Part shown: one piece after another, positions 3-11,779 of the stretch | How positions within the stretch are numbered: position 1 is the first letter of the stretch | Layout: every line of letters starts with the position of its first letter | DNA from: Candidatus Hodarchaeum mangrovi | GTDB taxonomy: Archaea > Asgardarchaeota > Heimdallarchaeia > Hodarchaeales > Hodarchaeaceae | NCBI GenBank assembly: GCA_016839515.1 | Contig: JAEOUE010000027.1 | Span: forward strand, 1-11,780 | DNA length: 11,780 nt | Reading direction: 5' to 3' | The notes under the pieces: generated by a model | What the model saw: only the letters and a program-made list of their open reading frames with translations | The model's database searches: none | Told to the model about the DNA's origin: nothing | Translations under genes and position numbers: made by a program

Positions 3-860
3 TTCCTTGCAGATGGGCATTTATTATTTGAAGATTATCCTGGTTTAGCTAAAACCATGATATGCAGAACCTTTGCTTCAACTTTAGGATGTAAATTCAA
101 ACGTATCCAATTTACTCCCGATTTATTGCCTCAAGATGTAACAGGGTCAGAAATTTATAATCAAAAAACTAATGAATTTGAATTCAAAGAGGGTCCAATA
201 TTTGCCGATATTATATTGTCAGATGAAATAAATAGAGCAACACCAAAAACACAAAGTGCTTTACTTGAAGCGATGGCTGAATATCAAGTAACAATTGGAG
301 GTACCACCTATAAATTAACTGGTGAAGGAAAACCTTTTTTGGTTGTAGCAACTCAAAATCCTCTAGAATTAGAGGGGACTTTTGCACTCCCTGAAGCTCA
401 AATAGATAGATTCTTAGCTAAGATTAGCATTGGATATCCTTCAAAAGAAGCAGAAAAAACCATTCTTACAAATAGAATCGGTAGAAAGCAGAAATCCTTT
501 GAAGTTACTCGAATCATTGATCGAAATATTTTCTATAACATGCAACGAACGGTTGAAGAAGTTTATGTTTCTGATGAAATAAAAGAATATATTGTTGATA
601 TAGTACAATATACAAGAGAAATGCCTCAAGTAAAGGTTGGAGCTTCGCCACGAGGTTCTTTAGATTTGATGGCATTAGCTAGAGCAAACGCTGTACTCGA
701 AAAACGTGATTATGTTATACCCCAAGATATTAAGGAACTAGCTGTAATAGCATTAGGTCACAGATTAGTTCTGGAAATTGGTTCATGGTTATCTGGTACT
801 TCTGCAAATATGTTAGTTGAGAAGGTATTGAAAGAAATAAAATCCCCGAGAAGAGAATAG
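3..860 (+). CDS. moxR: MoxR-family AAA+ ATPase (5'-truncated by window edge)
   Basis: The frame is open from position 3 (FLADGHLLFEDYPGLAKT, Walker A), upstream of the ATG at 57. It also contains RIQFTPDLLPQDVTG, Walker B ILSDEINRATPKTQSALLEAM, ATQNPLELEGTFALPEAQIDRF and GASPRGS, all hallmark MoxR motifs. Confidence 0.95.
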   Translation, partial: FLADGHLLFEDYPGLAKTMICRTFASTLGCKFKRIQFTPDLLPQDVTGSEIYNQKTNEFEFKEGPIFADIILSDEINRATPKTQSALLEAMAEYQVTIGGTTYKLTGEGKPFLVVATQNPLELEGTFALPEAQIDRFLAKISIGYPSKEAEKTILTNRIGRKQKSFEVTRIIDRNIFYNMQRTVEEVYVSDEIKEYIVDIVQYTREMPQVKVGASPRGSLDLMALARANAVLEKRDYVIPQDIKELAVIALGHRLVLEIGSWLSGTSANMLVEKVLKEIKSPRRE

Positions 861-910
861 AGAAGCCAGGAGGATTTTAACTGGTAAAATATTTTCGATT
901 AGACTCTTTC

Positions 911-2146
911 TTGATAATATCATTTTTTTTGTTAATTTTGGGTGTTATTCTTCGCTTATGGCTTTTAGCAGGACTAGTTTTCCCTCTCATTATCATTTTT
1001 TACTATTCCCTAAGTACTGAAGAAATTTCAATAGATAAAGTCATCATTAAAAGGTGGATTTCAAGAGATAGAACTGAAGAAAAAGGAGAACTCATAAATG
1101 TGAGATTGGATATATTAAACAATGGCCCCCGTATACCTGTTTTTGAGATTGTTGATAAAGTTCCAGAGGAATGCACAATTCATGAAGGATCGAACCATTG
1201 GTTATTTGAAATTAAACAGAATGAAACTATAAGCCTTAATTATGGAATAAAATGCCATAAACGGGGAAGATATATTTTAGGTCCAGTGATAACGCGAGGT
1301 TTTGATATTCTCCACTTTCATAAAAAAATTAAGTTACATGAAGTGTATACTTCCTTCGCAGTAGTTCCATCATTAATCAAACTTAGGGAACTTCCTATTG
1401 ATCGTCAAAGATTATTACCAGAAGTAGGATACATCCCAAGTATATCTTATAAAGGAAGGGATTTTGATTTTCAAGGTGTGAGGGATTACAAAGAAGGAGA
1501 TGAACTTCGAGCGATTAATTGGAGAGTAACTGCAAAATATAATAAACTGTCAACAAATGAATATGCATTAGATCAAGCAGCACGTATTTTCATCATTTTT
1601 GACCATACTATATCCACACAAAGAGTACTAGAAGAAGGAGTCATGGCTGCTTTAAGTACCGTAGAATATCTTATTTCGCAAAGAAATAAGGTAGGATTTT
1701 TCACCATTGGGGAATTTGTTGAGGAAATCCCTCCAGCTTCAGGTAAAAGACAATTATTACGAATAAATGAAGTACTTATAGATGTTAAACCTTCATTTCC
1801 AGCACATGAAGGAGTATTAACTCTACGTTTACAACGTAGATTACTTTCATCATTGCCTCCTATATCACAGATATTTTTTATAAGTCCATTATACAATAGA
1901 ATTATATTAAATTTCCTTAATGAATTAGCTGAAAAAGGACATGAAATTATCCTTATCATGCCCCGTTTAGAATCAATCTATGAAGAGAGTAGAGTTGTCC
2001 CTAATGCCTCTTTTTTAGCAAATGGACTTTTAGCTTTGGATAGGAATTATGTAACAAATCAATTATCAAAGTTAGGAATTACACAGATTTTTTGGTATCC
2101 TTATGGGCCAAAATATGAAACGATTAAAGTGAGAAGGACAAAATGA
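911..2146 (+). CDS. DUF58 domain membrane-anchored protein (MoxR partner); true start may be the CTG at 881
   Basis: Hydrophobic N-terminus, Ig-like segment with KRGRYILGP, DUF58 signature DFQGVRDYKEGDELRAINWRVTAK, then a vWA-like IFIIFDHTIS. Lies directly downstream of moxR, the usual arrangement. Confidence 0.9.
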   Translation: MIISFFLLILGVILRLWLLAGLVFPLIIIFYYSLSTEEISIDKVIIKRWISRDRTEEKGELINVRLDILNNGPRIPVFEIVDKVPEECTIHEGSNHWLFEIKQNETISLNYGIKCHKRGRYILGPVITRGFDILHFHKKIKLHEVYTSFAVVPSLIKLRELPIDRQRLLPEVGYIPSISYKGRDFDFQGVRDYKEGDELRAINWRVTAKYNKLSTNEYALDQAARIFIIFDHTISTQRVLEEGVMAALSTVEYLISQRNKVGFFTIGEFVEEIPPASGKRQLLRINEVLIDVKPSFPAHEGVLTLRLQRRLLSSLPPISQIFFISPLYNRIILNFLNELAEKGHEIILIMPRLESIYEESRVVPNASFLANGLLALDRNYVTNQLSKLGITQIFWYPYGPKYETIKVRRTK

Positions 2147-2757
2147 AATTACAACCGTTTATCTGGATAATCCAATTAGCAATGATTTTTACCTTTCTAT
2201 TTTTTTCCTTTATTCCAGTAATATACTCTTGGCTTACAGTATTATCTCCCATTCTTTCAGCAAGCGTTCATCTTTATTTTTTAATTGGGATTTTTTTTCT
2301 TTTAATAGGATTTATCACTCTTTTTGGAATTGTAACCTTAAAACCACAGTTAAGAATCTTTAGTTCAGGATTTTTTTCTTTTGGGGTCATTTTTGGGCTT
2401 TCAGATGCATATTTATTAGCTTTAGGGGTTGTTATATCTTGGGTATTTTATGAAATTTGGGATATCGGGTGGAGATACTCAATCCTTGATGAAGAATATG
2501 ACCCATATGAATTACAGACATTAGAGAAAAAACTGTTGAATCGATTGTTTTTTAATCAATTATCAGCTTTAGGAGTATTTGCATGGATTACTCTTTCACT
2601 TTCATGGGCAATGTTATTCATTACGACTCATTCATACATTCAGCTTGGAAAAGAGCATTTTGGGACCCTAGGACTTTCTCTTTCTGCTAGTATGTTACTT
2701 TTACTTTATTTAATACCACGTTTTACAGAGAAATCCAATCAGAAAGAACAAAACTAG
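2143..2757 (+). CDS. Hypothetical multi-pass membrane protein of the MoxR/DUF58 operon
   Basis: 204 aa with about 5-6 hydrophobic segments. Its start overlaps the DUF58 stop (ATGA at 2143-2146), indicating translational coupling. Confidence 0.8.
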   Translation: MKLQPFIWIIQLAMIFTFLFFSFIPVIYSWLTVLSPILSASVHLYFLIGIFFLLIGFITLFGIVTLKPQLRIFSSGFFSFGVIFGLSDAYLLALGVVISWVFYEIWDIGWRYSILDEEYDPYELQTLEKKLLNRLFFNQLSALGVFAWITLSLSWAMLFITTHSYIQLGKEHFGTLGLSLSASMLLLLYLIPRFTEKSNQKEQN

Positions 2758-2759
2758 AA

Positions 2760-3440
2760 TTAATAGTCTAAAATTTGATCAGATCTTATAAAAAATACTC
2801 TTTTCTCTTTCATTTTTGAGATTGCAGTAGCAACACTGTTTTCAGGGGAATTTACAGGCTTTGTGAGGTCAATAATATAATATACTTCAAATTCAAAATT
2901 TCTAGCATCAATAGCACTATAAAAAACACAGTAATCCAACGCTAAACCACACAAATAGACACGTTTAACCCCTATTGATTTTAAAAATGATTGAAGCCCC
3001 GTTTCAGTCTCTTTATCGTTTTCAAGGAACGCGGAATAAGAATCAATTGTCTGATGATGCCCTTTTCTTAGAATCATTGTTGCATACACAGTATTCAATC
3101 TTGGAGCGAAGTTTGCACCTTCTGTACCTTGTACACAATGATCTGGCCAGAGAATTGGACCTATACCATGCCCCGTAATAGGATCATATGGAGACTTACC
3201 TTCATGCATCGAAGCGAAAGATAAATGATCTTTTGGATGCCAATCTTGGGTAAATATTATCGGTATGTCTTTAGTGCGAAATTTTTCAAGTAATAAATTG
3301 ATACCTGGGATAATTGTATCCCCCTCGGCAACTGGTAACCTACCACCAGGTAAAAAATCATTTTGCATATCAATTACAATTAAAGCATCATTTGGACCAA
3401 TTCTAACTAAACCTTCAAGCCTTATATCTTGAATCTCCAT
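2760..3440 (-). CDS. pncA: Nicotinamidase/pyrazinamidase
   Basis: ALIVIDMQNDFLPGGRL (catalytic Asp), TQDWHP and LWPDHCVQGT (metal ligands), RKG...DSYSAF (catalytic Lys), GLALDYCV (catalytic Cys). Divergent from pncB. Confidence 0.95.
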   Translation of the reverse strand: MEIQDIRLEGLVRIGPNDALIVIDMQNDFLPGGRLPVAEGDTIIPGINLLLEKFRTKDIPIIFTQDWHPKDHLSFASMHEGKSPYDPITGHGIGPILWPDHCVQGTEGANFAPRLNTVYATMILRKGHHQTIDSYSAFLENDKETETGLQSFLKSIGVKRVYLCGLALDYCVFYSAIDARNFEFEVYYIIDLTKPVNSPENSVATAISKMKEKRVFFIRSDQILDY

Positions 3441-3570
3441 TAAATCACATCAATTTTTCCAGTTAATCTCCCTCACAATTATAGGATACAAAAACGTTTC
3501 TCTCTGTAAAAAACAAGTTAAAAGAAAAAGAAATAATTAATTTTGATGAAATAGTATTACTTGAAGATAT

Positions 3571-5085
3571 ATGTTCTACAAGGAAAACAGAGCTCTTTTC
3601 ACTGATTTATACGAGTTGACAATGAGCCAAGGATATTTCAATTACGAGATGAATGATAAAGCCACTTTTGATTTGTTTTTTAGAGAAAATCCCTTTAATG
3701 GTGGATATTCTGTTGCATGTGGCATTTCATTAGCTTTAGAATATTTAAAACATTTTAGATTTACCGATAGTGATATTAATTATTTAAAAAGAAAAAATTT
3801 ATTCAAGGATGAATTTCTAGAATTTCTTTCAACAATAAGGTTTACTGGTACTGTTGAAGGTGTTCTGGAAGGAACGATTATGTTTCCTTACACACCGATT
3901 ATTAAAATTACAAGTTCTCTCATTGAAGCTCAGCTAGTTGAAACCGCCCTACTAAATATAATAAACTATTCAACTTTAATTGCTACTAAAGCGGCTAGAA
4001 TTACTCATTCAGCTAAAGGAGGGAAAATAGTTGAATTTGGATTGAGAAGAGCGCAAGGTGATAGCGCTTACATTGGTGTAAGAGCTGCTTTAGTTGGTGG
4101 ATGTGTAGGTACTTCCTTTGTTAAAGCAGGCGAAATTTGGGATTGTCAAATTGCAGGAACACAAGCCCACTCTTGGGTTCAAGCATTCCCATCAGAATAT
4201 GATTCATTTAAAGCATATGCTAATTCTTTTCCAAAGAATTGTATTTTACTATTAGATACTTATAATGTACTAAAATCAGGTTTACCCAATGCTATTCAAA
4301 TTGCTAAATATCTGAGAGCGCAAGGAAAGGAATTACAAGGAGTACGAATTGATTCTGGTGATCTTGCTTATCTAGCACTTGAAGTATATAGAACATTCTC
4401 AAAAGAGGGTTTTCCTAATATTTCTATAATTCTCTCGAACGAGCTGGATGAGTATACTATCAACTCGATTGTTCAACACATTAAAGAGCAAGGAAATAAC
4501 AATGAATATGATAAGAATATATGTAATGAAACAATAAACCATCTTATTTATGGTGTAGGCACGCGATTAATCACTGGAGGAGAACAAGGAGCGTTGGGAG
4601 GAGTCTATAAATTGGTTGCTTTTAATGGAATACCCCGTATCAAAGTTAGTGAGAACCCACAAAAAACTATAAATCCTGGAGACAAAACTGTTTGGCGAGT
4701 AAGCGATTCCAAAGGAAAATTTTTAGCTGATGTGATAGGATTATCTCATGAAAATCCTATTGAAGCTGGAGATACGATTTTTCATCCAATAGATCCTTTA
4801 AAAAAGTTTGTTATTCCCCCTAATGTAACAATTGAACCTTTATATCAGAAAATTATGGAGAATGGAAGAATAACCTTAAAGGAAACAATCTTTAGCTGGA
4901 AAAAGGGCCAAAAAAATTTTATTAGTCAATTCAGAAAACTAGATCCAACATTTAAAAGACTACTAAACCCACATATTTATAAGGTTAGTTTAAGCAAAAA
5001 ATTGTTTCAATTAAAGATGAATCTAATAAAAAAATACTCTCCAGATGATATTAAAGAAAATCATCAGAATTTAATCAGCAATTGA
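3571..5085 (+). CDS. pncB: Nicotinate phosphoribosyltransferase
   Basis: FTDLYELTM, FFRENPF, EFGLRRAQG, GTQAHSWV (phosphorylated His), LLDTY, GVRIDSGDL, SNELDE, YGVGT, GGVYKLV, KVSENPQKTINPG. Confidence 0.95.
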   Translation: MFYKENRALFTDLYELTMSQGYFNYEMNDKATFDLFFRENPFNGGYSVACGISLALEYLKHFRFTDSDINYLKRKNLFKDEFLEFLSTIRFTGTVEGVLEGTIMFPYTPIIKITSSLIEAQLVETALLNIINYSTLIATKAARITHSAKGGKIVEFGLRRAQGDSAYIGVRAALVGGCVGTSFVKAGEIWDCQIAGTQAHSWVQAFPSEYDSFKAYANSFPKNCILLLDTYNVLKSGLPNAIQIAKYLRAQGKELQGVRIDSGDLAYLALEVYRTFSKEGFPNISIILSNELDEYTINSIVQHIKEQGNNNEYDKNICNETINHLIYGVGTRLITGGEQGALGGVYKLVAFNGIPRIKVSENPQKTINPGDKTVWRVSDSKGKFLADVIGLSHENPIEAGDTIFHPIDPLKKFVIPPNVTIEPLYQKIMENGRITLKETIFSWKKGQKNFISQFRKLDPTFKRLLNPHIYKVSLSKKLFQLKMNLIKKYSPDDIKENHQNLISN

Positions 5086-5302: not shown

Positions 5303-5857
5303 TTGCCATTATATAAAATTTGTTTATTGGGTGACGGTGGTGTTGGAAAAACATCCCTTCGTGAAAGATTCCTTGGTAAAGGATTTCAATCTGGGTATAT
5401 TTTGACTATTGGTGCAGATTTTGCGGTCCAGAATCTCGAGATTGATAATAGACAATATAAGTTCCAAATCTGGGATTTAGCTGGACAGCAACGTTTTTCT
5501 GCGGTGAGGACTCTCTATTATAAAGGATCCCATGGCGCTATCCTCGTTTTTGATCGTACACGACCAGATTCACTTTATAATTTAGAAAATTGGAAAAAAG
5601 AACTTTTTAACAATGTAGGAAGACAAGTTCCTTATGTAATTCTTGGAAATAAGAGTGATTTACCAAATACAATTGAAGAGGAAGAATTGAACAACTTTAT
5701 TGAAAAATCACAACAAGAAATCCAAAATATTCCATTTAGGATCAAATACCTAAATACATCAGCAAAATCAGGTGAAAATGTCACAGAGGCCTTTTCTGTT
5801 CTAGGTAGATCTATAAAAGACTTCATTGAAAAATATAAACAATTTCAAACTAATTAA
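5303..5857 (+). CDS. Rab-like small GTPase (Ras superfamily, eukaryotic signature protein type)
   Basis: G1 GDGGVGKT, G2 ILTIG, G3 WDLAGQ, G4 NKSD, G5 TSAK. RabF-like motifs IGADF, KFQIW, RFSAV, YYKGS, LVFDRT. TTG start with GAGGG at 5292-5296. Confidence 0.93.
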   Translation: MPLYKICLLGDGGVGKTSLRERFLGKGFQSGYILTIGADFAVQNLEIDNRQYKFQIWDLAGQQRFSAVRTLYYKGSHGAILVFDRTRPDSLYNLENWKKELFNNVGRQVPYVILGNKSDLPNTIEEEELNNFIEKSQQEIQNIPFRIKYLNTSAKSGENVTEAFSVLGRSIKDFIEKYKQFQTN

Positions 5858-6685
5858 TCACTTCTTAATTAATTTAGGAATATCCGAAGGAATAGAAATA
5901 ATAGTAAATTCTTTAGCTAACTTACTTATGTTACTAGCATCAACCTTTCTAACATTTATTGATATTACATCTCCATAAGTGAAAATATTAGGTAGTTTAT
6001 GCACACAAACTTTACAACCAACACAAAACTCAGGAAGAAATGTTATAGTTTTTCTTATGTATTTAATAGCCTCGTATTTACAAAAAAAATTCCCAAATTC
6101 CTGATCACCTAATCCTCCAGTAAAACGAATAGGTAATTTTGTTATAACACTTCCTTCTTCCATATCAGTAGGTACTAGTACAATTTCTTTGCCCATTTTG
6201 ACAGAATTAATAATTAGGTTTGTAATCAATGTATCATTCACCCCTGTACATATTTTCGCTGCTGTATTCGAAGTTAATGGGCTAACAATGATGTGGTGAA
6301 AAGAGTATTGGCTTAAAGATTGCGCGACAGAAAAACTTGGGTCATAACGATTGATAAGATAATGAAAACCTCCTTTAACAAGAATTTTCTCTATATTATA
6401 GTTCACAATCTCTTGATTTTCAAAAATAAAAAAAATTTTTTCTTTAAAATGTGTATATTTTTGTATCTCATAAAAAAAACCATAACGGTTTGCTACTAAT
6501 GCTCCTGAATTTGAGAATACCATCAAAACCTTAATGGAATAATCTAGAATTGAAATTAATGCCCTAAAATTTTCTTCAAAATGATGGCCACCCCCAGTAT
6601 AACACCATAATATTAGAGGATCATTTGAATGGATAAAAGAGATCATAGGAGTGAATGAAAGATCGTAATTAGATGATTGATTCAT
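5858..6685 (-). CDS. Archaeal flavoprotein (HFCD fold) with ferredoxin-like insert, DmrX (dihydromethanopterin reductase)/AfpA-like
   Basis: WCYTGGGH, FSNSGALVANRYG, VSPLTSNTAAKICTGVNDTLITN and VPTD match the AfpA/DmrX FMN-binding family. The insert has FCKYEAI and CVGCKVC, followed by the DmrX-like tail VRKVDASNISKL. Confidence 0.8.
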   Translation of the reverse strand: MNQSSNYDLSFTPMISFIHSNDPLILWCYTGGGHHFEENFRALISILDYSIKVLMVFSNSGALVANRYGFFYEIQKYTHFKEKIFFIFENQEIVNYNIEKILVKGGFHYLINRYDPSFSVAQSLSQYSFHHIIVSPLTSNTAAKICTGVNDTLITNLIINSVKMGKEIVLVPTDMEEGSVITKLPIRFTGGLGDQEFGNFFCKYEAIKYIRKTITFLPEFCVGCKVCVHKLPNIFTYGDVISINVRKVDASNISKLAKEFTIISIPSDIPKLIKK

Positions 6686-6704: not shown

Positions 6705-7550
6705 TTAATTTTCAGTCTTTTCCTCAAAGTGTTTTATCTCACAATTTGGCCCTAGTTTAACAGATGTCCCTACCACATAATCAGCTTTAACTCCTTCAAG
6801 GTAGACCTTGCCTTCGGAAATGATCTGATTCACTGTCAAGGTTCCCTTTCGCTTTTCTTGTTCTATATAAATGTCACCTAGGCAAATTAAATTCCCTTCA
6901 ATAGATGATTTATCCTCTAAACTACATGTAAATTTGCTACAGTTTACATCTCCATTTATTTTAAAAGCACCATTGATCTCTGCATCAAAACATGCTAGAT
7001 CCCCATTAATTTTCAGTGCTCCACTACAATTGAGTTTAGCATTCTCAGCAACAACAGGACCTTCTATTTTACCTGCTCCAGATAGATTAAGTGTTTCATG
7101 AACAGTTAAAGGCCCATCTATTTTATAAGATCCAGATGCTGTAAAAGAATTCGTCTCAAGAGCCCCATTTGCTTTGAAAGACCCAGAAACTATAAGCTTT
7201 TCCGTCTTCATATCACCAGGTAACGTACCAGACCCACTAATTCTTATTTCTTCATCTGAAATACTCCCTGATCCTGAAATTGAAATAGATCCACCACGCC
7301 ATCCTTCAACATGACCAGATCCAGAAATATTAATTTGAGAATCAGTTACTTTTCCTGATCCTGAAATGCTAATGTAACTCAACCCACGAAATAAACTCTT
7401 TTCTTTAATAAGATGAATTTGTTCTTCAAGTTTTTGCTCATATTTCTGCTTTAATTCCTTATATTCCTCTGAGGAAATCTCATCGTTTTTTAATCGAATA
7501 TCTAATGATTTAATTAAGGTTTTTAAATCATCTATTTCTTTATTTGACAA
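6705..7550 (-). CDS. Polymer-forming cytoskeletal (bactofilin-like, YhbE/YhbF-type) beta-helix protein with N-terminal SHOCT-like helical motif
   Basis: Nine or more repeats of a hydrophobic-x-hydrophobic-SG[SA] unit (ISISGSGKV, INISGSGHV, ISISGSGSI, IRISGSGTL, LIVSGSFKA, FTASGSYKI, LNLSGAGKI, LNCSGALKI, AEINGAFKI) and a C-terminal VKLGPNCEI. The ORF is open to 7613, but TTG at 7550 (or GTG at 7559) is preferred because a TATA-like box lies at 7578-7584. Confidence 0.75.
   Translation of the reverse strand: MSNKEIDDLKTLIKSLDIRLKNDEISSEEYKELKQKYEQKLEEQIHLIKEKSLFRGLSYISISGSGKVTDSQINISGSGHVEGWRGGSISISGSGSISDEEIRISGSGTLPGDMKTEKLIVSGSFKANGALETNSFTASGSYKIDGPLTVHETLNLSGAGKIEGPVVAENAKLNCSGALKINGDLACFDAEINGAFKINGDVNCSKFTCSLEDKSSIEGNLICLGDIYIEQEKRKGTLTVNQIISEGKVYLEGVKADYVVGTSVKLGPNCEIKHFEEKTEN
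7267..7367. repeat. Intragenic direct repeat CCTGATCCTGAAAT (7267-7280 and 7354-7367)
   Basis: Two identical 14-mers 87 nt (29 codons) apart, both within ISGSG-encoding segments of the beta-helix gene. Confidence 0.6.
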
Positions 7551-7577
7551 TGAATTCACTTCTTCCTTCTTATTTCC

Positions 7578-7592
7578 TATATAACCTTTAAT
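7578..7592 (-). promoter_or_regulatory. Putative archaeal BRE/TATA promoter of the bactofilin-like gene
   Basis: Minus strand reads ATTAAAGG-TTATATA, with the TATA about 30 nt upstream of the TTG at 7550. Confidence 0.4.
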
Positions 7593-7757
7593 AATTTTCA
7601 ATATTCTTAACAAGAATCTCTGATTTTATTATTGATTCAGATTATGTTTATAATATTCTAAAATAGTGAGTTAATCCAATAAACCATTGAGTTTATTAGA
7701 TGACATAAATAGTATGTCTTAGAGACAAGCTGTAAGTTCTTTGATCAAACCTCTAAG

Positions 7758-7792: not shown

Positions 7793-8302
7793 ATGGATAA
7801 AATTTTTGAACAGCGAGTTGAGAGTATTCTAAAGATCCTTGCTGATTCTACACGTAGAGAAATTGTTAAATTAATAAGTGAGACTCCGATGAATCCCAAG
7901 GATCTAGCGGAGAAATTAAAAATATCCAGACCAGCGGTTGAAAAACATTTAAAGCTTTTAAAATTAAATTATCTCTGTGAATTAACAGTAGAACCTTTTC
8001 CAACGCCTCATTATGTTTATTTTATCACTGATATTGGACTTATGTTACTAGATTCTATTACTACTGCATGCTTACAGTATTTTCAATCTTTAGAAGGAAT
8101 TATTGAGTCAGAATTAGATCAAATTGAACGGAATTTTGTATTAGGATTAATTACGAGAAATGAATATGATTCAAAACGAAACCAATTACTTATCAAACGT
8201 AATGAGCTAGAATCACTCCAATTGACCCGAATATGGGTTGAAGAAGCTAAAAAAGTTGTTGAAGAACATACTATTAAGAGAACCTCAGAGGAGATGCAAT
8301 AA
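7793..8302 (+). CDS. ArsR/SmtB-type winged-helix transcriptional regulator with C-terminal SHOCT-like/coiled-coil extension
   Basis: LKILADSTRREIVKLI...MNPKDLAEKLKISRPAVEKHLKLL is the ArsR HTH signature. The C-terminal part contains ELDQIERNFVLGLITRNEYDSKRNQLL. Confidence 0.85.
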   Translation: MDKIFEQRVESILKILADSTRREIVKLISETPMNPKDLAEKLKISRPAVEKHLKLLKLNYLCELTVEPFPTPHYVYFITDIGLMLLDSITTACLQYFQSLEGIIESELDQIERNFVLGLITRNEYDSKRNQLLIKRNELESLQLTRIWVEEAKKVVEEHTIKRTSEEMQ

Positions 8303-9196
8303 ATCAATAAGTATTTTCAAATTACGAGAATGTTTAGTTCTATAAATTCGAAAATTAAGGAGCTGTAAATCAGGATTGTGAGGTTGAGATGGGGAACGGA
8401 TTTCAAGCACATCTATATAGTTATTAAAAAGTTTAATACAAGCTACATTAGCTTCTTTAGGGTATTCCATCGATACCCGATCCTCATGAAGTCGTACATT
8501 AACTGTTCCAAGATACATCTTCGCAGAAGAAGAGATTGCATCAGAGATCATTAAAACTAATTCTCCAATATCCATAGACCGTTTCAAGGGATCTCTTAGA
8601 ATTTTTCCAGGATCCTTTTTTCCGATAACAGGTGTGTAATTAGAATCAAGAGGACCCATAGCACTGTCTTGTGTGATCCCACCTTCAGTTCTGTGACCTG
8701 TAATTTCAAGAGATATGTCCTCATGAATCACTTCAATATCATTTGGATCGTAAAGATTACATAGAGCTAAAGTACGCTCATTTGGAGCTGGAAAGATAGA
8801 ACCAGCTTCTTTGAGTAAAATTTCAGTTATCCAAAGGCGTTCTTTCGTAACTACACTTAAATTTAAGGTAGCAGGATCAAGAATCAATAGTAATTCTGGT
8901 GTTTTCATCCCACAAATAGCTGCTAAGCTTGTAGTCTTCTGACTACCAGTTTTATCCATTAAAGTATGTAGAATAGAGGGAATAATGACTGTATCTTGAT
9001 ACTGAAGAGTATTATCGCTGTCAATGGTGAGAGGATCATCCATTGGAACATTATAAGCATGATGTATCCATACATCACCTTTAATTGATAATTGATTTTG
9101 GATATTCTCTAATAAAGATTTTTTACCGGGAAATGCAAGATCATTTCGATCTTGAAAGGTTTGTACTTTGCGTGGTTTTAACCTTTTTTTTCCCAT
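8285..9196 (-). CDS. Hypothetical protein, possibly a very divergent fumarylacetoacetate hydrolase (FAH)-fold protein
   Basis: 303-aa ATG-started ORF filling the gap between neighbours, so the CDS itself is likely real. FAH similarity (PELLLIL, ALCN, DSAMGP, IGELVLMISD, YLGT) is weak and recognised by eye only. Confidence 0.6.
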   Translation of the reverse strand: MGKKRLKPRKVQTFQDRNDLAFPGKKSLLENIQNQLSIKGDVWIHHAYNVPMDDPLTIDSDNTLQYQDTVIIPSILHTLMDKTGSQKTTSLAAICGMKTPELLLILDPATLNLSVVTKERLWITEILLKEAGSIFPAPNERTLALCNLYDPNDIEVIHEDISLEITGHRTEGGITQDSAMGPLDSNYTPVIGKKDPGKILRDPLKRSMDIGELVLMISDAISSSAKMYLGTVNVRLHEDRVSMEYPKEANVACIKLFNNYIDVLEIRSPSQPHNPDLQLLNFRIYRTKHSRNLKILIDLLHLL

Positions 9197-9269: not shown

Positions 9270-10487
9270 TTAAAGTTTGATTACAATCTCAGGAGTGAAG
9301 CGTGCAATTCTTTTTCCTAATTCTAATCTTTCGATCATGGGAAGGATTTCGTTAGAGCCACGATAACCATATTCTAAAGCCTCTATGTCCTGAATGATCA
9401 AACAACTCTTCATGGGAGCATTACTTAATCTGAAAAAAATTTTATTATTAAAAATTATTTTTTCTACATCGGAATAAGGATAGAGTAATTTATAACCTCC
9501 ACCATGAGGAAGAATGTTTGCATTTTGTATAAATTCTTCATGACCATAGCTTTGAGCTCTTTCTAATTGTTTAACTGTCCAATGATTCTTCTTAATATTT
9601 CTTAATCCCTCATACAAATAAATAAAAGAATATCCATTAAATCCTAAAGGGAAAAGTCTTAAATTTTTATCTCCTGATTGATGCAATGAATTTGAGAGCC
9701 CTAACCGCATAACTTGAAATCCATTTTCCTTAAAATAACCTTGATGGGTAGGATTTGAAATTATTTCAATGTTTTCTTCCCCAAATAATTCTTTTGCAAT
9801 GGAAGTACGTTTATTCTTGCTAAAAGTTTCCATTTTTTGAAAAAAATTAAAATATTCTGCTATTTTTTCTTTTGGTAACCCTTTAACACTTCCAAAGGGA
9901 GATTCGAAAGAAATGAAATCATTTTGAGACCACATACTCAAGCGATCTTTCTGAGTTTGTTGAGAGGAATGGATTAATACATAATTTCCAGGAGTAAGCC
10001 AACTTCTTATAGCTTGGTCATTAGAATATAGATCATCTAGAAAAAGAAAATCAATAAAATGATTGGATTTCCAAACATCCCATTTTCCTTTCTCACTTCC
10101 AATCGGGATTCCATTTTTCTTAATTTTGTCAATTTTTATCATAATATCTTTTAATGATGGAAGATTATGGATTTTGTAAAAACCATAACCACAACCATTA
10201 GGATGAAGTAAACTAGGAAATATATAATCTTTAGTGGCTACCAAACAACCATATCCGACCCCTTCATTGAATCGCTCTTTATTTCGAGTAATACCACCAT
10301 CAGGTCCAAATATCGTGATTACATTGAATGGATCCTCACCTAATGACCTATAAAAATATTTTATTTTAGCTAATCCAATACTCATTACTTCTTTGGCTAA
10401 TAAACATGTTAAATCGTTTGTTGCCCAAGTATAAATTTCATTTTTTGCTTCTAGAAGGAGTGTTTCATTGTTTGAAAGATTGTTCAT
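9270..10487 (-). CDS. Divergent RtcB-family (RNA ligase/guanylyltransferase-like) protein
   Basis: RtcB motifs in canonical order: GPD63, NGC99G, SN142H143FID, LIH173S, TH248Q, MRLG, PH328GGG, GY375R, and C-terminal P-x-x-V-x-K404. Confidence 0.75.
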   Translation of the reverse strand: MNNLSNNETLLLEAKNEIYTWATNDLTCLLAKEVMSIGLAKIKYFYRSLGEDPFNVITIFGPDGGITRNKERFNEGVGYGCLVATKDYIFPSLLHPNGCGYGFYKIHNLPSLKDIMIKIDKIKKNGIPIGSEKGKWDVWKSNHFIDFLFLDDLYSNDQAIRSWLTPGNYVLIHSSQQTQKDRLSMWSQNDFISFESPFGSVKGLPKEKIAEYFNFFQKMETFSKNKRTSIAKELFGEENIEIISNPTHQGYFKENGFQVMRLGLSNSLHQSGDKNLRLFPLGFNGYSFIYLYEGLRNIKKNHWTVKQLERAQSYGHEEFIQNANILPHGGGYKLLYPYSDVEKIIFNNKIFFRLSNAPMKSCLIIQDIEALEYGYRGSNEILPMIERLELGKRIARFTPEIVIKL

Positions 10488-10579: not shown

Positions 10580-11779
10580 TTAATATCCTTGGGCTTGCCC
10601 ATCCTTACGTGGATCTGACCCTGCAACATAGATGGTAGTTCCAAGATCCTTTTTGATAATTTGACCACCACCAAAGTTCATGCCAACACAATCTACCACA
10701 TGATGACCCTTTTCTCTTAATTTCATTCTAATAGAGATTGGGATAGGATCCTCAAACCCAACAACATTAGAAAGTTGATCATGATTAAACCTAGGAGCCT
10801 CAATTGCTGATTGAGGATCCATGTCAAATAGAACCATGTTTAAAAATACCTGAGCTTGACCCTGAGGTTGATGATGACCACCCATGACTCCAAATGAATA
10901 AATAAAATCATTTGCTGAGTTAGTTACCAAGGCAGGAATAATAGTGTGATAAGGACGTTTTCTAGGCGCGTATTGATTTGGATGATTTTTCTTTAAGGAA
11001 AATCCAGCTCCTCTGTTCTGAAAAGCTATACCAGTTTCAGAATCTACAATACCAGAACCAAATCCATAAAATAGAGAGTTTATAAATGATATTGACATTC
11101 CTTCATTATCAGCAGCGGTTAGATAAATAGTATCTTCTCCCATGTTCAATGCACTCGGAAGATCGCGCATAGCTTGGAGTGGATTAATTTGACTCGATCT
11201 TGTTTGAGCATACTTTTCAGTCAAAAAGTCTTCAGTTGAAATCTTCATCCACCCTGGGTCAGCAATATTAGCAAAAGCGTCAGCAAAAGCTAATTTTTTT
11301 GCTTCAATCAAACAATGTAAATAATCTATCGAATTATGTGAATATTGACCAATATCATATTCTTCAACAATCGATAAAATTAGGAGAGTAACTAATCCTT
11401 GTCCATTGGGCCCATGTTCCCACAAAGTATGATCATAAAATTCTTTTGAAATTGGTTTTGTCCATTCAGCTTTAAAATCAGTAAGATCAGATAAAGAAAT
11501 AAAGCCTCCTTTATCTTCAAAGAATTGTACAATATTTATAGCTAATTCCCCATCATAAAATACCCGAGAGCCCTCTTTAGCAATTTTTTCTAATGTTTCA
11601 GCTAATTTTTGTTGTTTAAAAATTTCTCCTATAACAGGAGCTCGCTCTTGGTTAATTAAATAAGTATTAGTGGCTCCTTCATTAAGAAAAAGCTTGGGTT
11701 CTAATTCTTTCCATACTTGTGCAATAACAGGACTTATTGGGAAACCATTTTTAGCGTAATATATAGCAGGGGCAAGAAT
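10580..11779 (-). CDS. ggt: Gamma-glutamyltransferase family Ntn hydrolase (YwrD-like subgroup), 5'-truncated by window edge
   Basis: The frame is open to the window end (ILAPAIYYAKNGFPISP...LAETLEKIAKEG..FYDGELA..GGFISLSDL). It contains PNGQG, the autoprocessing Thr in EDTIYLTAAD, SFINS..GFGSG, QNRGAGF, KRPYHTIIP, GVMGGHHQPQG and GSDPRKDG. Confidence 0.93.
   Translation of the reverse strand: MLAPAIYYAKNGFPISPVIAQVWKELEPKLFLNEGATNTYLINQERAPVIGEIFKQQKLAETLEKIAKEGSRVFYDGELAINIVQFFEDKGGFISLSDLTDFKAEWTKPISKEFYDHTLWEHGPNGQGLVTLLILSIVEEYDIGQYSHNSIDYLHCLIEAKKLAFADAFANIADPGWMKISTEDFLTEKYAQTRSSQINPLQAMRDLPSALNMGEDTIYLTAADNEGMSISFINSLFYGFGSGIVDSETGIAFQNRGAGFSLKKNHPNQYAPRKRPYHTIIPALVTNSANDFIYSFGVMGGHHQPQGQAQVFLNMVLFDMDPQSAIEAPRFNHDQLSNVVGFEDPIPISIRMKLREKGHHVVDCVGMNFGGGQIIKKDLGTTIYVAGSDPRKDGQAQGY

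What the first reader, a model, noticed from the sequence alone, without database searches (positions are those of the whole stretch)
9270..10487. Compact, non-canonical RtcB-fold enzyme with a rewired active site
Seen: a 405-aa protein with PD63, C99, N142-H143, H173, H248, H328GGG, Y375 and penultimate K404. Established: canonical RtcB (P. horikoshii numbering) uses D65, D95, C98, N202/H203, H234, H329/N330, H404 (guanylylated), Y451 and K480 in the same order. Differences seen: the metal-ligand Asp of DINCG/DIGCG is absent (HPNGCG); HN becomes HQ; HRKG becomes MRLG; HSGSR becomes HSSQQ; HGAGR becomes HGGGY; the Cys-to-NH spacing is about 44 aa versus about 105; and there is an insert after the PD motif (GGITRNKERFNE). 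Inference: the metal ligands other than that Asp and the nucleophilic His are kept, while several basic or polar motif residues are changed. This fits an RtcB paralog that still self-guanylylates but acts on a different substrate (3'-end capping of DNA/RNA, a small molecule or a protein) rather than being the housekeeping tRNA-splicing ligase.
Basis: partly seen in the sequence, partly recalled or inferred. Interest (0 to 1): 0.8.

Follow-up and report, generated by a model that had tools for sequence, protein, structure and literature searches.

The report
Divergent RtcB-fold enzyme, unknown substrate
This Asgard-archaeal gene encodes an unannotated, very distant relative of the RNA-joining enzyme RtcB that keeps the enzyme's catalytic core but not its RNA-holding residues, sits beside a normal RtcB in the same genome, and probably applies RtcB-type phosphate chemistry to a substrate not yet identified.

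Summary
No Pfam or NCBIfam model recognises it. An AlphaFold2 model (pLDDT 93.3) matches P. horikoshii RtcB at Z 24.5, against 5.4 for the next unrelated fold.

It belongs to an unnamed family of 410 clusters in Asgard and other archaea and several bacterial phyla. C99, N142, H143, H173, H248 and H328 are invariant in 50 of 50 aligned members. The M2 ligand Asp95 is replaced by an invariant Pro. The 5'-OH-strand residue Arg238 has no basic counterpart in 48 of 50.

The genome also has a canonical RtcB and a second copy of this family. Relatives carry archease next to canonical rtcB.

Operon partners elsewhere are an HD hydrolase, an MJ1311-type TIM barrel, and an ATP-grasp ligase with a deacylase. 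One lineage has a kinase fusion.

Best reading: an active accessory enzyme that activates phosphate through a nucleotidylated histidine. The substrate is unresolved between a small phosphoester and nucleic-acid ends. This scan has flagged the same family on other genomes.

The parts
9270..10487 (-). 405-aa RtcB-fold protein (P0001), a member of an unnamed sister family of RtcB
   Evidence: ORF and translation. 147 homologues. AF2 pLDDT 93.3. RtcB fold at Z 24.5. No Pfam or NCBIfam hit above threshold.
10248..10304 (-). P62-D63 followed by the family-specific segment GGITRNKERFNE and G78-Y-G80. D63, R68, R72 and Y79 are invariant; N69 is kept in 49 of 50.
   Evidence: Equivalence to the canonical PD-x-H-x-GYG motif is inferred from motif order.
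10188..10202 (-). P96-N97-G98-C99-G100, the counterpart of canonical D-I-N-C-G. The bridging Cys is kept and the Asp95 position is Pro.
   Evidence: Global hhalign. P96, N97 and C99 are 50/50. 75 of 76 full-length family ORFs have [PA]NxCG and 0 of 76 have DxxCG.
10050..10064 (-). [quoted passage not shown]
   Evidence: HMM alignment to 2epg, 1uc2 and 4dwr and hhalign. NHF is invariant. Position 146 is E in 30, D in 16, N in 3 and T in 1 of 50.
9957..9971 (-). H173-SSQQ177, the counterpart of H234-TGSR238. The M1 ligand is kept and the Arg238 position is Gln.
   Evidence: Position 177 is R or K in only 2 of 50.
9738..9746 (-). H248-Q249-G250, the proposed counterpart of H329-N330 (M1 ligand and gamma-phosphate contact)
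   Evidence: H248 and Q249 are invariant. The equivalence is inferred from order only and was not confirmed by profile alignment.
9492..9509 (-). P327-H328-GGG-Y332, the counterpart of H404-GAG-R408. H328 is the presumed nucleotidylated histidine.
   Evidence: hhalign. All six positions are invariant.
9357..9365 (-). Y375-R376-G377, the counterpart of the Tyr451 region
   Evidence: hhalign. Y is kept in 49 of 50 and R in 50 of 50.
9276..9278 (-). K404, the counterpart of Lys480 (guanine O6 contact)
   Evidence: K in 49 and R in 1 of 50. Role taken from PMC9745838.
8285..9196 (-). 303-aa lineage-restricted orphan ('c3'), 73 bp downstream on the same strand. It is a candidate clade-specific partner of unknown fold.
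   Evidence: It lies downstream on the same strand in 19 of the 19 loci that hold it. All 52 homologues that carry a source name are from Hodarchaeales/Heimdall/Promethearchaeota records, and none has a Pfam domain. The AF2 model is poor, pLDDT 52.6.
10580..11779 (-). gamma-glutamyltranspeptidase gene (5' end runs off the window), 92 bp upstream on the same strand
   Evidence: PF01019 at E 7e-104. It is upstream on the same strand in 22 of its 26 occurrences near family genes. The whole region is syntenic within the order, so this linkage is weak evidence.

Best explanation
The gene encodes a catalytically competent accessory member of an unnamed sister family of the RNA ligase RtcB.

Shown: it has the RtcB fold. 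It keeps the bridging Cys (C99), three His metal ligands (H143, H173 and, by inference, H248), the nucleophile His in a PHGGG loop (H328), and the guanine and phosphate contacts (N142, F144, D/E146, Q249, Y375, K404). It coexists with a canonical RtcB.

Inferred mechanism: with Mn2+ (or a similar metal) and GTP it forms a covalent His328-GMP adduct. It transfers GMP to a phosphomonoester to give an X-p-p-G intermediate. A hydroxyl then attacks to make a phosphodiester, or the capped product is released.

The substrate is not a pair of tRNA exon halves held in the canonical way. The M2 ligand Asp95 is an invariant Pro. The 5'-OH-strand clamp (Arg238, His242 and the Arg190/Gln194 segment) has no counterpart. 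New invariant residues (D25, R68, R72, R376, Y332) and near-invariant ones (N69, R227; 49 of 50 each) take their place.

My committed guess for the substrate class is a non-polynucleotide phosphoester, meaning a phosphorylated small metabolite or a peptide-linked phosphate. The grounds are that family members are operonic with an ATP-grasp ligase plus an AstE/AspA-type deacylase in five phyla, and that in one lineage the domain is fused to an APH-type small-molecule kinase.

Probabilities: about 0.85 that it is an active RtcB-type enzyme with a changed substrate, and about 0.45 that the substrate is non-polynucleotide. The confidence value given for this explanation (0.5) covers the whole statement, including the substrate guess.
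For: Fold:
- AF2 pLDDT 93.3, pTM 0.91.
- Foldseek: all 16 hits at E <= 1e-3 are RtcB.
- VIA-align: Z 21.6-24.5 for 10 RtcB entries, against 5.4 for the next fold.

Sequence link to RtcB:
- The family profile hits only RtcB chains in the PDB, 4 of 4 matches, best E 9e-4.
- Global hhalign to canonical Asgard RtcBs gives probability 62.5, E 1e-5.
- The ESM Atlas places RtcB-bearing clusters right after the family's own clusters.

Conservation:
- Catalytic residues are invariant in 50 of 50.
- PNxCG, NHF and PHGxG are present in 75-76 of 76 full-length family ORFs from 80 loci.
- Residue roles come from PMC9745838 (abstract and passages) and PMC8051266 (abstract and passages).

Paralogy:
- Canonical RtcB is present in G000 and in 19 of 21 relatives.
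- Archease is present in 18 of 21 relatives and lies next to canonical rtcB.
- This family is present in 18 of 21 relatives, with two or more matches in 12 of 13 genomes of the genus.

Substrate change:
- Position 177 (Arg238) is basic in only 2 of 50.
- Pro96 replaces Asp95 in 50 of 50.

Context:
- ATP-grasp on the same strand in 10 of 10 loci, with gaps of 10-77 bp in the six bacterial loci where the two genes are adjacent. An AstE/AspA-like gene is present in 9 loci. These span Hadarchaeota, Actinobacteria, Anaerolineae, Ardenticatenales and Bipolaricaulia.
- APH kinase fusion in two independent sequences that keep all the motifs.
- Asp/Glu racemase plus a class IV aminotransferase in 2 Atribacterota loci.
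Against: - No biochemical data exist, so nucleotidylation and metal use are inferred.
- Loss of the M2 Asp could mean altered or weakened GTP chemistry.
- Spatial clustering of the residues could not be checked, because no coordinates are returned.
- H248 = His329 is not confirmed by any alignment.
- Other recurrent partners point towards nucleic-acid ends instead. An MJ1311-type TIM barrel lies downstream in 11 of 11 loci with a median gap of 6 bp. MJ1311 is listed as the predicted Endo IV homologue of M. jannaschii in PMC2770678 (Table 1).
- A YedJ/YpgQ-type HD nucleotide pyrophosphohydrolase-like gene is on the same strand in 13 of 13 occurrences. Metallophosphoesterases occur in 4 loci.
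- None of these partners occurs next to the window's own gene. Its neighbours (GGT and the orphan c3) are part of an order-wide syntenic block and say little.
- The window's clade sits on a very long stem (1.46 substitutions per site), so family-wide inferences may not transfer to it.
Confidence: 0.5

Rival explanations
1. It is a nucleic-acid end-processing enzyme: a repair-type RtcB paralogue. It would guanylylate (cap) or seal DNA or RNA ends bearing 3'- or 5'-phosphates, using a differently built polynucleotide-binding surface. It would work with end-cleaning phosphoesterases.
For: - Partners are tightly coupled. An Endo IV-superfamily TIM barrel (an MJ1311 homologue, 3wqo E 2e-45; bona fide endonuclease IV chains at about 1e-13) lies 1-14 bp downstream in 10 of 11 Altiarchaeota/Hadarchaeota loci.
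- A YpgQ/YedJ-type HD gene is on the same strand in 13 of 13 occurrences, in Asgard, Methanobacteriota and Chloroflexota loci.
- A calcineurin-like phosphoesterase occurs in 4 loci.
- PolB and TrmI are nearby in Altiarchaeota.
- A HIT/GalT-like gene is transcribed divergently from the genome's second copy.
- Asn142, the counterpart of the residue that contacts the 5'-OH nucleophile, is invariant (PMC8051266).
- New invariant arginines (R68, R72, R376) could bind a phosphate backbone.
- From memory, read in no call: bacterial RtcB paralogues with DNA 3'-phosphate or 5'-phosphate capping activity have been described by the Shuman laboratory.
Against: - The known 5'-OH-strand contacts are not conserved. 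Arg238 is basic in only 2 of 50, the His242 position is variable, and the Arg190/Gln194 segment lies in the stretch that is 61 residues shorter.
- The ATP-grasp/deacylase operons and the APH-kinase fusion fit small-molecule or peptide chemistry better.
- The TIM-barrel partner scores as well against sugar epimerases and isomerases as against endonuclease IV.
- MJ1311 itself is uncharacterised.
Confidence: 0.33
2. It is a redundant or back-up tRNA-splicing / general RNA 3'-P/5'-OH ligase with ordinary RtcB activity, merely diverged in sequence.
For: It has the same fold and catalytic core. Archaea need RtcB for tRNA splicing (established knowledge).
Against: - A canonical archease-rtcB pair is present in the lineage.
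- Pfam's RtcB model gives no hit even at E <= 1.
- Asp95 and Arg238 are not conserved. Per passages of PMC8051266, mutating Arg238's E. coli counterpart to Ala slowed the sealing step 200-fold.
- The family is missing from 3 of 21 relatives, all three of them among the 19 with a canonical RtcB match.
Confidence: 0.04
3. It is a catalytically inactive RtcB-fold protein, a pseudoenzyme, with a binding or regulatory role.
For: One metal ligand (Asp95) and several basic motif residues are lost. The window's clade sits on a long branch.
Against: Cys, four His, Asn, Gln, Tyr and Lys of the active site are invariant or nearly so across archaea and bacteria at about 30% overall identity. That pattern is what selection on catalysis would produce. 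Pro96-Asn97 is itself invariant, which suggests a rebuilt site and not a decayed one.
Confidence: 0.06

Closest known systems
Canonical RtcB 3'-phosphate/5'-OH RNA ligase (Pfam PF01139; P. horikoshii PH1602, PDB 1uc2/4dwq/4dwr; T. thermophilus 2epg; human RTCB 7p3b/8odo)
   Same: - Same fold: Z 21.6-24.5, with 312-325 aligned residues.
- Same order of motifs.
- The bridging Cys, the His ligands, the nucleophile His in an HGxG loop, NHF, the C-terminal Lys and the Tyr are all kept.
- The guanine-contact Glu is kept as Asp or Glu in 46 of 50.
   Different: - Only 13-16% identity, and no PF01139 hit.
- The Asp95 position is an invariant Pro, and Arg238 and Arg408 are replaced (HSSQQ, HGGGY).
- There is a 12-residue Arg/Asn-rich segment after PD.
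- The Cys-to-NHF segment is 61 residues shorter.
- It is not next to archease.
- It occurs alongside canonical RtcB and does not replace it.
Accessory bacterial RtcB paralogues (E. coli RtcB2 with PrfH; Myxococcus RtcB paralogues). For RtcB2-PrfH I saw search listings, one abstract and passages (PMC9223846; PMC9304027 listing). The Myxococcus work is recalled only.
   Same: They are extra RtcB-fold genes kept beside a housekeeping copy, and are thought to have specialised substrates.
   Different: Judging by their naming in the literature, those paralogues are recognised as RtcB. I did not test this against PF01139. They keep the canonical Asp-x-x-Cys motif as far as I recall. The present family has PNxCG in 75 of 76 members and DxxCG in 0 of 76, and is missed by Pfam and NCBIfam.
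The same unnamed family as annotated in public records: 'RNA-splicing ligase RtcB family', Methanonatronarchaeum thermophilum OUJ18610.1 (P0078)
   Same: It is a full-length family member at 31% identity, E 8e-42.
   Different: It is the only source name among the listed homologues that mentions RtcB; every other name given is 'hypothetical protein'. It carries no functional data.

Membership tests
RtcB (PF01139 / COG1690-type RNA ligase) | RtcB fold | tested here: met
   AF2 model pLDDT 93.3. 4dwq_A at Z 24.5, rmsd 3.7 A over 324 residues; the next unrelated fold is at Z 5.4. Foldseek E 8e-11.
RtcB (PF01139 / COG1690-type RNA ligase) | Scores above the curated family model threshold | tested here: not met
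   No PF01139 hit even at E <= 1. The NCBIfam RtcB-family model NF007153 scores 11.8 bits against a cut-off of 407. Ten distant family members also gave no hit.
RtcB (PF01139 / COG1690-type RNA ligase) | M1 metal ligands Cys98, His234, His329 | tested here: inconclusive
   C99 and H173 align to Cys98 and His234 and are invariant. H248 is invariant and in the right order, but no profile alignment places it on His329. There are no coordinates with which to check geometry.
RtcB (PF01139 / COG1690-type RNA ligase) | M2 metal ligands Asp95, Cys98, His203 | tested here: not met
   H143 aligns to His203 and C99 to Cys98, but the Asp95 column is Pro in 50 of 50. 0 of 76 family ORFs contain DxxCG.
RtcB (PF01139 / COG1690-type RNA ligase) | Nucleophilic His404 in the HGxG loop | tested here: met
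   H328-GGG aligns to H-GAG and is invariant.
RtcB (PF01139 / COG1690-type RNA ligase) | Guanine-specific contacts Glu206 and Lys480 | tested here: met
   Position 146 is E or D in 46 of 50. K404 is K in 49 of 50. Alignments. Roles from PMC9745838. In more distant subgroups these positions vary.
RtcB (PF01139 / COG1690-type RNA ligase) | 5'-OH strand contacts (Arg238; Arg190/Gln194; His242) | tested here: not met
   The Arg238 column is basic in 2 of 50 and the His242 column is His in 2 of 50. Arg190 and Gln194 lie in the segment that is 61 residues shorter. Roles from PMC8051266.
RtcB (PF01139 / COG1690-type RNA ligase) | GTP/Mn2+-dependent self-guanylylation and 3'-P/5'-OH RNA sealing | not testable with these tools
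   This needs biochemistry.
RtcB (PF01139 / COG1690-type RNA ligase) | Genomic pairing with archease (archaeal tRNA-splicing operon) | tested here: not met
   Archease lies next to canonical rtcB in relatives, e.g. G003 C46 22164-22568 and 22726-24003. It is not next to this gene. No archease was found in G000, which is 91% complete and where canonical rtcB is cut by a contig end.

The most novel reading that the evidence does not exclude
This family is the first branch of the RtcB superfamily that does not work on polynucleotides. It would use the His-GMP / X-p-p-G route to activate a small phosphorylated metabolite or a phosphorylated peptide, making either a GDP-linked intermediate or a phosphodiester. 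The kinase (fused in one lineage), the ATP-grasp ligase, the deacylase and the phosphoesterases encoded beside it would build and recycle the same compound. In Hodarchaeales a fast-evolving copy has acquired a lineage-specific 303-aa partner.
Probability: 0.4. Interest if true: 0.85.

Novelty: new variant of a known kind. Interest (0 to 1): 0.62.

Why it matters
RtcB is the only known enzyme class that joins 3'-phosphate to 5'-OH ends through a histidine-GMP intermediate. All characterised members act on RNA or DNA ends.

A widespread and conserved sister family would extend that chemistry to an unknown substrate. It counts 410 clusters at 50% identity and occurs in Asgard archaea, Altiarchaeota, Hadarchaeota and several bacterial phyla. 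It keeps the nucleotidyl-histidine machinery, rebuilds one metal site, and drops the residues that hold the polynucleotide.

The family is invisible to Pfam and NCBIfam, so it is annotated as 'hypothetical' almost everywhere. Hodarchaeales, close relatives of eukaryotes, keep two or three copies beside the housekeeping ligase.

The hypothesis can be tested directly with a simple label-transfer assay. The recurrent operon partners (HD hydrolase, MJ1311-type TIM barrel, ATP-grasp plus deacylase, kinase fusion) give concrete leads to the substrate.

Tried and rejected
- **Family libraries.** Pfam and NCBIfam scans of the protein gave only sub-threshold noise: YceG_bac at E 0.004 and NF007153 at E 0.083. 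Single-sequence phmmer against the PDB gave only 2epg at E about 1.
- **H248 mapping.** Local hhalign against canonical RtcB gave probability 16. Sub-region hhalign to place H248 on His329 failed, with probability below 1.
- **Fused forms.** A search for longer forms found none at 740-2110 aa. This is weak evidence, since the 743-aa fusion P0153 seen was itself not recovered.
- **The downstream orphan c3.**
  - No Pfam or NCBIfam hit.
  - PDB profile best E 0.98.
  - ESM Atlas best score 0.80, which is at chance level.
  - AF2 model pLDDT 52.6, too poor to search with.
  - No profile similarity to the HD, TIM, ATP-grasp, AstE, MPE or TrmI partners.
- **Complex prediction** of the RtcB-like protein with c3: no answer, score 0.00.
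- **Expression.** No RNA holder was listed. The stretch is held by 20 DNA runs of 7 studies.
- **RNA genes.** Rfam and tRNA scans of the window found nothing.
- **ATP-grasp partner** against the PDB: only non-significant glutathione-synthetase-like hits at E 0.2-0.6.
- **Literature.**
  - Searches for a description of this family found none.
  - Burroughs & Aravind 2016 (PMC5062991), Maughan & Shuman 2016 (PMC4859591) and Desai et al. 2013 (PMC3670941) are not held. I cannot exclude that the first mentions the family.
  - Supplementary files were not consulted.
- **GGT and c3 adjacency.** I considered this as functional evidence and rejected it. The flanking genes (flavoprotein, bactofilin, ArsR) are equally conserved in 17-19 of the same loci, so the block is order-level synteny.
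Full report
**1. Observation.** Window 9270-10487 holds a single intact ORF on the minus strand, with an ATG start and 405 aa. The plus-strand frame is full of stops. The window is 32% G+C and the gene 31%.

**2. It is a real, conserved gene of an unnamed family.**
- A word-indexed search found 147 homologues at E <= 1e-3. About 55 are Hodarchaeales/Heimdall-type sequences at 55-64% identity. The rest are at about 27-34% identity from Altiarchaeota, Methanofastidiosia, MSBL1, Thor- and Promethearchaeota and Actinobacteria.
- All but one of the names given by sources are 'hypothetical protein'. The exception is Methanonatronarchaeum thermophilum, 'RNA-splicing ligase RtcB family'.
- A profile of 50 members searched against 1.84 billion representatives found 410 clusters at E <= 1e-3, 269 at <= 1e-10 and 158 at <= 1e-30.
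- Neither Pfam nor NCBIfam recognises the protein or ten distant members.
- In the 50-sequence alignment the invariant residues are D25, P62, D63, R68, R72, G76, Y79, G80, P96, N97, C99, N142, H143, F144, H173, G199, Y212, H248, Q249, L262, G263, P280, N324, P327, H328, G329-G331, Y332 and R376. Y375 and K404 are each kept in 49 of 50.

**3. Fold.** AlphaFold2 with this alignment gave mean pLDDT 93.3 and pTM 0.91. In Foldseek against the PDB, all 16 matches at E <= 1e-3 are RtcB chains (best 4dwq_A, 8.3e-11), and the next match has E 0.026. VIA-align gave Z 21.6-24.5 for ten RtcB entries. The best is 4dwq_A at Z 24.5, rmsd 3.7 A, with 324 of 405 residues aligned and model residues 8-405 mapped onto chain residues 16-481. 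The best unrelated fold scores Z 5.4. The ESM Atlas lists two 'hypothetical protein' clusters first (0.97, 0.96), then 24 hits whose family set is PF01139.

**4. Residue mapping.** The family profile matches only RtcB chains in the PDB: 4 of 4 matches, with 2epg at E 9e-4 and P. horikoshii at 0.01.
- That alignment puts N142-H143-F144 on Asn202-His203-Phe204 and H173 on His234.
- Profile-profile comparison with ten canonical Asgard RtcBs (alignment A2) gave probability 16 locally and probability 62.5, E 1e-5, globally.
- The global alignment adds PNGCG on D-I-N-C-G (C99 = Cys98; Pro96 at the Asp95 column), MRLG on HRKG, H328-GGG-Y on His404-GAG-Arg408, Y375 on Tyr451 and K404 on Lys480.
- P. 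horikoshii numbering was tied in through.
- H248-Q249 = His329-Asn330 and PD63 = PD65 remain inferences from order and invariance. The profile alignments misplace or fail on those segments.

Residue roles come from the literature. M1 is His234, His329 and Cys98. M2 is Cys98, Asp95 and His203. His404 is the nucleophile. Lys480 and Glu206 read the guanine. Asn202 and Asn330 contact the GTP phosphates (PMC9745838, abstract and passages). Asn202 also contacts the 5'-OH nucleophile, and Arg238, Arg190, Gln194 and His242 hold the 5'-OH strand (PMC8051266, abstract and passages).

Against that list, the family compares as follows.
- It keeps the whole nucleotide-binding and M1 set.
- It replaces Asp95 by Pro in 50 of 50, with an invariant Asn one residue later.
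- It has a basic residue at the Arg238 column in only 2 of 50 and His at the His242 column in 2 of 50.
- It has lost 61 residues of the segment that carries Arg190 and Gln194.
- Among 76 full-length family ORFs from the fetched loci, 75 have [PA]NxCG and none has DxxCG.
- More distant ~365-380-aa members keep PNxCG, NHF, H, H[QE]G, PHGxGY and YR, but vary at the guanine-contact positions.

**5. Paralogy in this genome and its relatives.**
- The assembly is 4.0 Mb in 348 contigs, 91% complete. It holds a canonical PF01139 gene on C315 (E 2.8e-124), cut by the contig end.
- It also holds a second member of the present family on C41.
- No archease was found in it.
- Archease is present in 18 of 21 related genomes and lies immediately upstream of canonical rtcB there. 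Its absence here is most simply explained by the contig break.
- Canonical RtcB was found in 19 of 21 relatives.
- The present family was found in 18 of 21, with two or more matches in 12 of 13 genomes of the genus.

The gene is therefore an accessory paralogue and not the housekeeping ligase.

**6. Family-wide context.** Pattern-plus-tblastn scanning of one genome per species gave 84 relatives, of which 80 loci were kept. They come from Asgard lineages, Altiarchaeota, Hadarchaeota, Methanofastidiosia, Geothermarchaeales, Nano- and Woesearchaeota, Actinobacteria, Chloroflexota, Armatimonadota, Atribacterota, Zipacnadia and Bipolaricaulia. I called ORFs of >= 90 aa, clustered them by all-against-all BLASTP and measured distances.

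Recurrent same-strand neighbours:

| Neighbour | Occurrence | Gap | Lineages |
|---|---|---|---|
| HD-domain protein of the YedJ/YpgQ type | 13 of 13 on the same strand | median 35 bp | Thor-, Hermod- and Promethearchaeota, Methanobacteriota, Chloroflexota |
| Xylose-isomerase-like TIM barrel homologous to MJ1311 (3wqo, E 2e-45) | 11 of 11 downstream | median 6 bp | Altiarchaeota, Hadarchaeota |
| 450-aa ATP-grasp protein, with an AstE/AspA-like deacylase in 9 loci | 10 of 10 on the same strand | 10-77 bp in the 6 adjacent bacterial loci | Hadarchaeota, Actinobacteria, Anaerolineae, Ardenticatenales, Bipolaricaulia |
| Calcineurin-like phosphoesterase | 4 loci | | |

Atribacterota loci carry an Asp/Glu racemase and a class IV aminotransferase, or CstA. 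Anaerolineae loci carry U32-family genes. Two independent metagenomic sequences (743 and 748 aa) fuse an APH-family kinase domain (PF01636, E 3e-20) to the N-terminus of the domain, with all motifs kept.

A quick maximum-likelihood tree of 81 rows places the window's gene in a clade of 21 Hodarchaeales-type sequences, on a stem of 1.46 substitutions per site with SH-aLRT 100. The ATP-grasp and HD associations are scattered over several clades.

In the window's own clade the neighbours are a gamma-glutamyltranspeptidase upstream and a 303-aa orphan downstream. The orphan is there in 19 of the 19 loci holding it. All 52 of its homologues that carry a source name are from Hodarchaeales/Heimdall/Promethearchaeota records, and none has a Pfam domain. 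The flanking genes are equally syntenic, so this is weak functional evidence.

**7. Mechanism.**
- Shown: the fold, the conservation pattern and the paralogy.
- Inferred: metal- and GTP-dependent formation of His328-GMP, transfer of GMP to a phosphomonoester, then attack by a hydroxyl or release of the capped product.

The loss of the canonical 5'-OH-strand clamp and of Asp95, together with the new invariant Arg, Asn and Tyr residues, argues for a different substrate. I put about 0.85 on 'active RtcB-type enzyme with a changed substrate'.

On the substrate class the context evidence is split. The ATP-grasp/deacylase operons, the kinase fusion and the amino-acid-related neighbours favour a small or peptide-linked phosphoester (about 0.45). 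The MJ1311-type TIM barrel is listed as the predicted Endo IV homologue of M. jannaschii in Table 1 of PMC2770678. Together with the YpgQ-type HD (a nucleotide pyrophosphohydrolase family, PMC8177086) and the metallophosphoesterases, it favours nucleic-acid ends (about 0.33). A back-up tRNA ligase (0.04) and a pseudoenzyme (0.06) are unlikely.

**8. Novelty and prior knowledge.** Five full-text searches found no description of this family. Three relevant papers are not held, so a prior mention, notably in Burroughs & Aravind 2016, cannot be excluded.

This scan has flagged the same family on other genomes: e1-5454840, e1-5444388, e1-5649475, e1-5519142, e1-5449370, e1-5453106 and e1-547374. 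I looked these up after my own reading was formed, and they agree with it. One reports a glycerophosphodiesterase operon, which I did not test.

I rate the finding a new variant of a known kind.

**9. What led nowhere.** See Tried and rejected. In brief:
- the c3 orphan could not be assigned a fold;
- the complex prediction gave no answer;
- no RNA run was listed;

Noticed in passing
G000 contig C41:62588-63808 (L003 1498-2745, L103 8086-9333), minus strand: A second, 415-aa member of the same RtcB-like family lies in the same genome. Its best identity to any other row of the tree is 48%, to a Promethearchaeota sequence of the HD-linked clade. It is transcribed divergently from a 405-aa HIT/GalT-like nucleotidyltransferase gene. 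A 957-aa protein without Pfam hits follows it.
   Followed up: partly
Proteins P0153 (743 aa) and P0263 (748 aa), from metagenomes: These are natural fusions of an APH-family (aminoglycoside/choline-kinase-like) kinase domain to the N-terminus of the RtcB-like domain, seen on two separate contigs. The RtcB-like motifs are intact.
   Followed up: partly
G019:C1:1558351-1561179 and G015:C38:129362-132214 (L098, L099, L102): In these two relatives the canonical RtcB sits in open frames of 993 and 1015 aa. The Pfam match is split after about position 50 by roughly 490 aa, which looks like an intein, as is known for P. horikoshii PH1602.
   Followed up: no
G000 contig C315:5938-6948 (L001): The genome's canonical rtcB is cut at the contig end: Pfam positions 87-426 only. 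Archease was not found in the assembly, although in relatives it lies just upstream of rtcB. It was probably lost at the contig break.
   Followed up: partly
window 8285-9196 (-): A 303-aa orphan is restricted to Hodarchaeales/Heimdall-type genomes and always lies downstream of this RtcB-like gene. It has many invariant Asp, Glu and His residues (e.g. W43-x-H45-H46), no detectable family, and a poor AF2 model. Its 3' end overlaps the convergent ArsR-type gene (7793-8302, +) by 18 bp.
   Followed up: partly
window 5303-5857 (+): Ras/Rab-like small GTPase (PF00071, E 6e-44). From memory, such small GTPases count among the eukaryotic signature proteins of Asgard archaea.
   Followed up: no
window 5858-6685 (-) and 6705-7613 (-): The first gene is a flavoprotein-family protein (PF02441) with a Cys-rich, ferredoxin-like C-terminal tail (weak Fer4 hits). 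The next is a bactofilin-domain protein with an N-terminal coiled-coil-like region.
   Followed up: no
window 3-2757 (+) and 2760-5085: A MoxR-type AAA_3 ATPase, a DUF58 protein and a membrane protein form an apparent operon. Next to them is a divergent NAD-salvage pair: an isochorismatase/nicotinamidase-like gene on the minus strand and a nicotinate phosphoribosyltransferase on the plus strand.
   Followed up: no
L044, L049, L055 (Anaerolineae loci): Two or three tandem U32-family genes (TrhP/UbiU/UbiV-like) lie directly upstream of the RtcB-like, ATP-grasp and AstE-like genes.
   Followed up: no
L025-L041 (Altiarchaeota and Hadarchaeota loci): The TIM-barrel gene coupled to the RtcB-like gene, with 1-14 bp gaps, is a close homologue of the structurally solved but uncharacterised MJ1311 (PDB 3wqo, E 2e-45). 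The linkage gives a functional lead for that orphan structure.
   Followed up: partly
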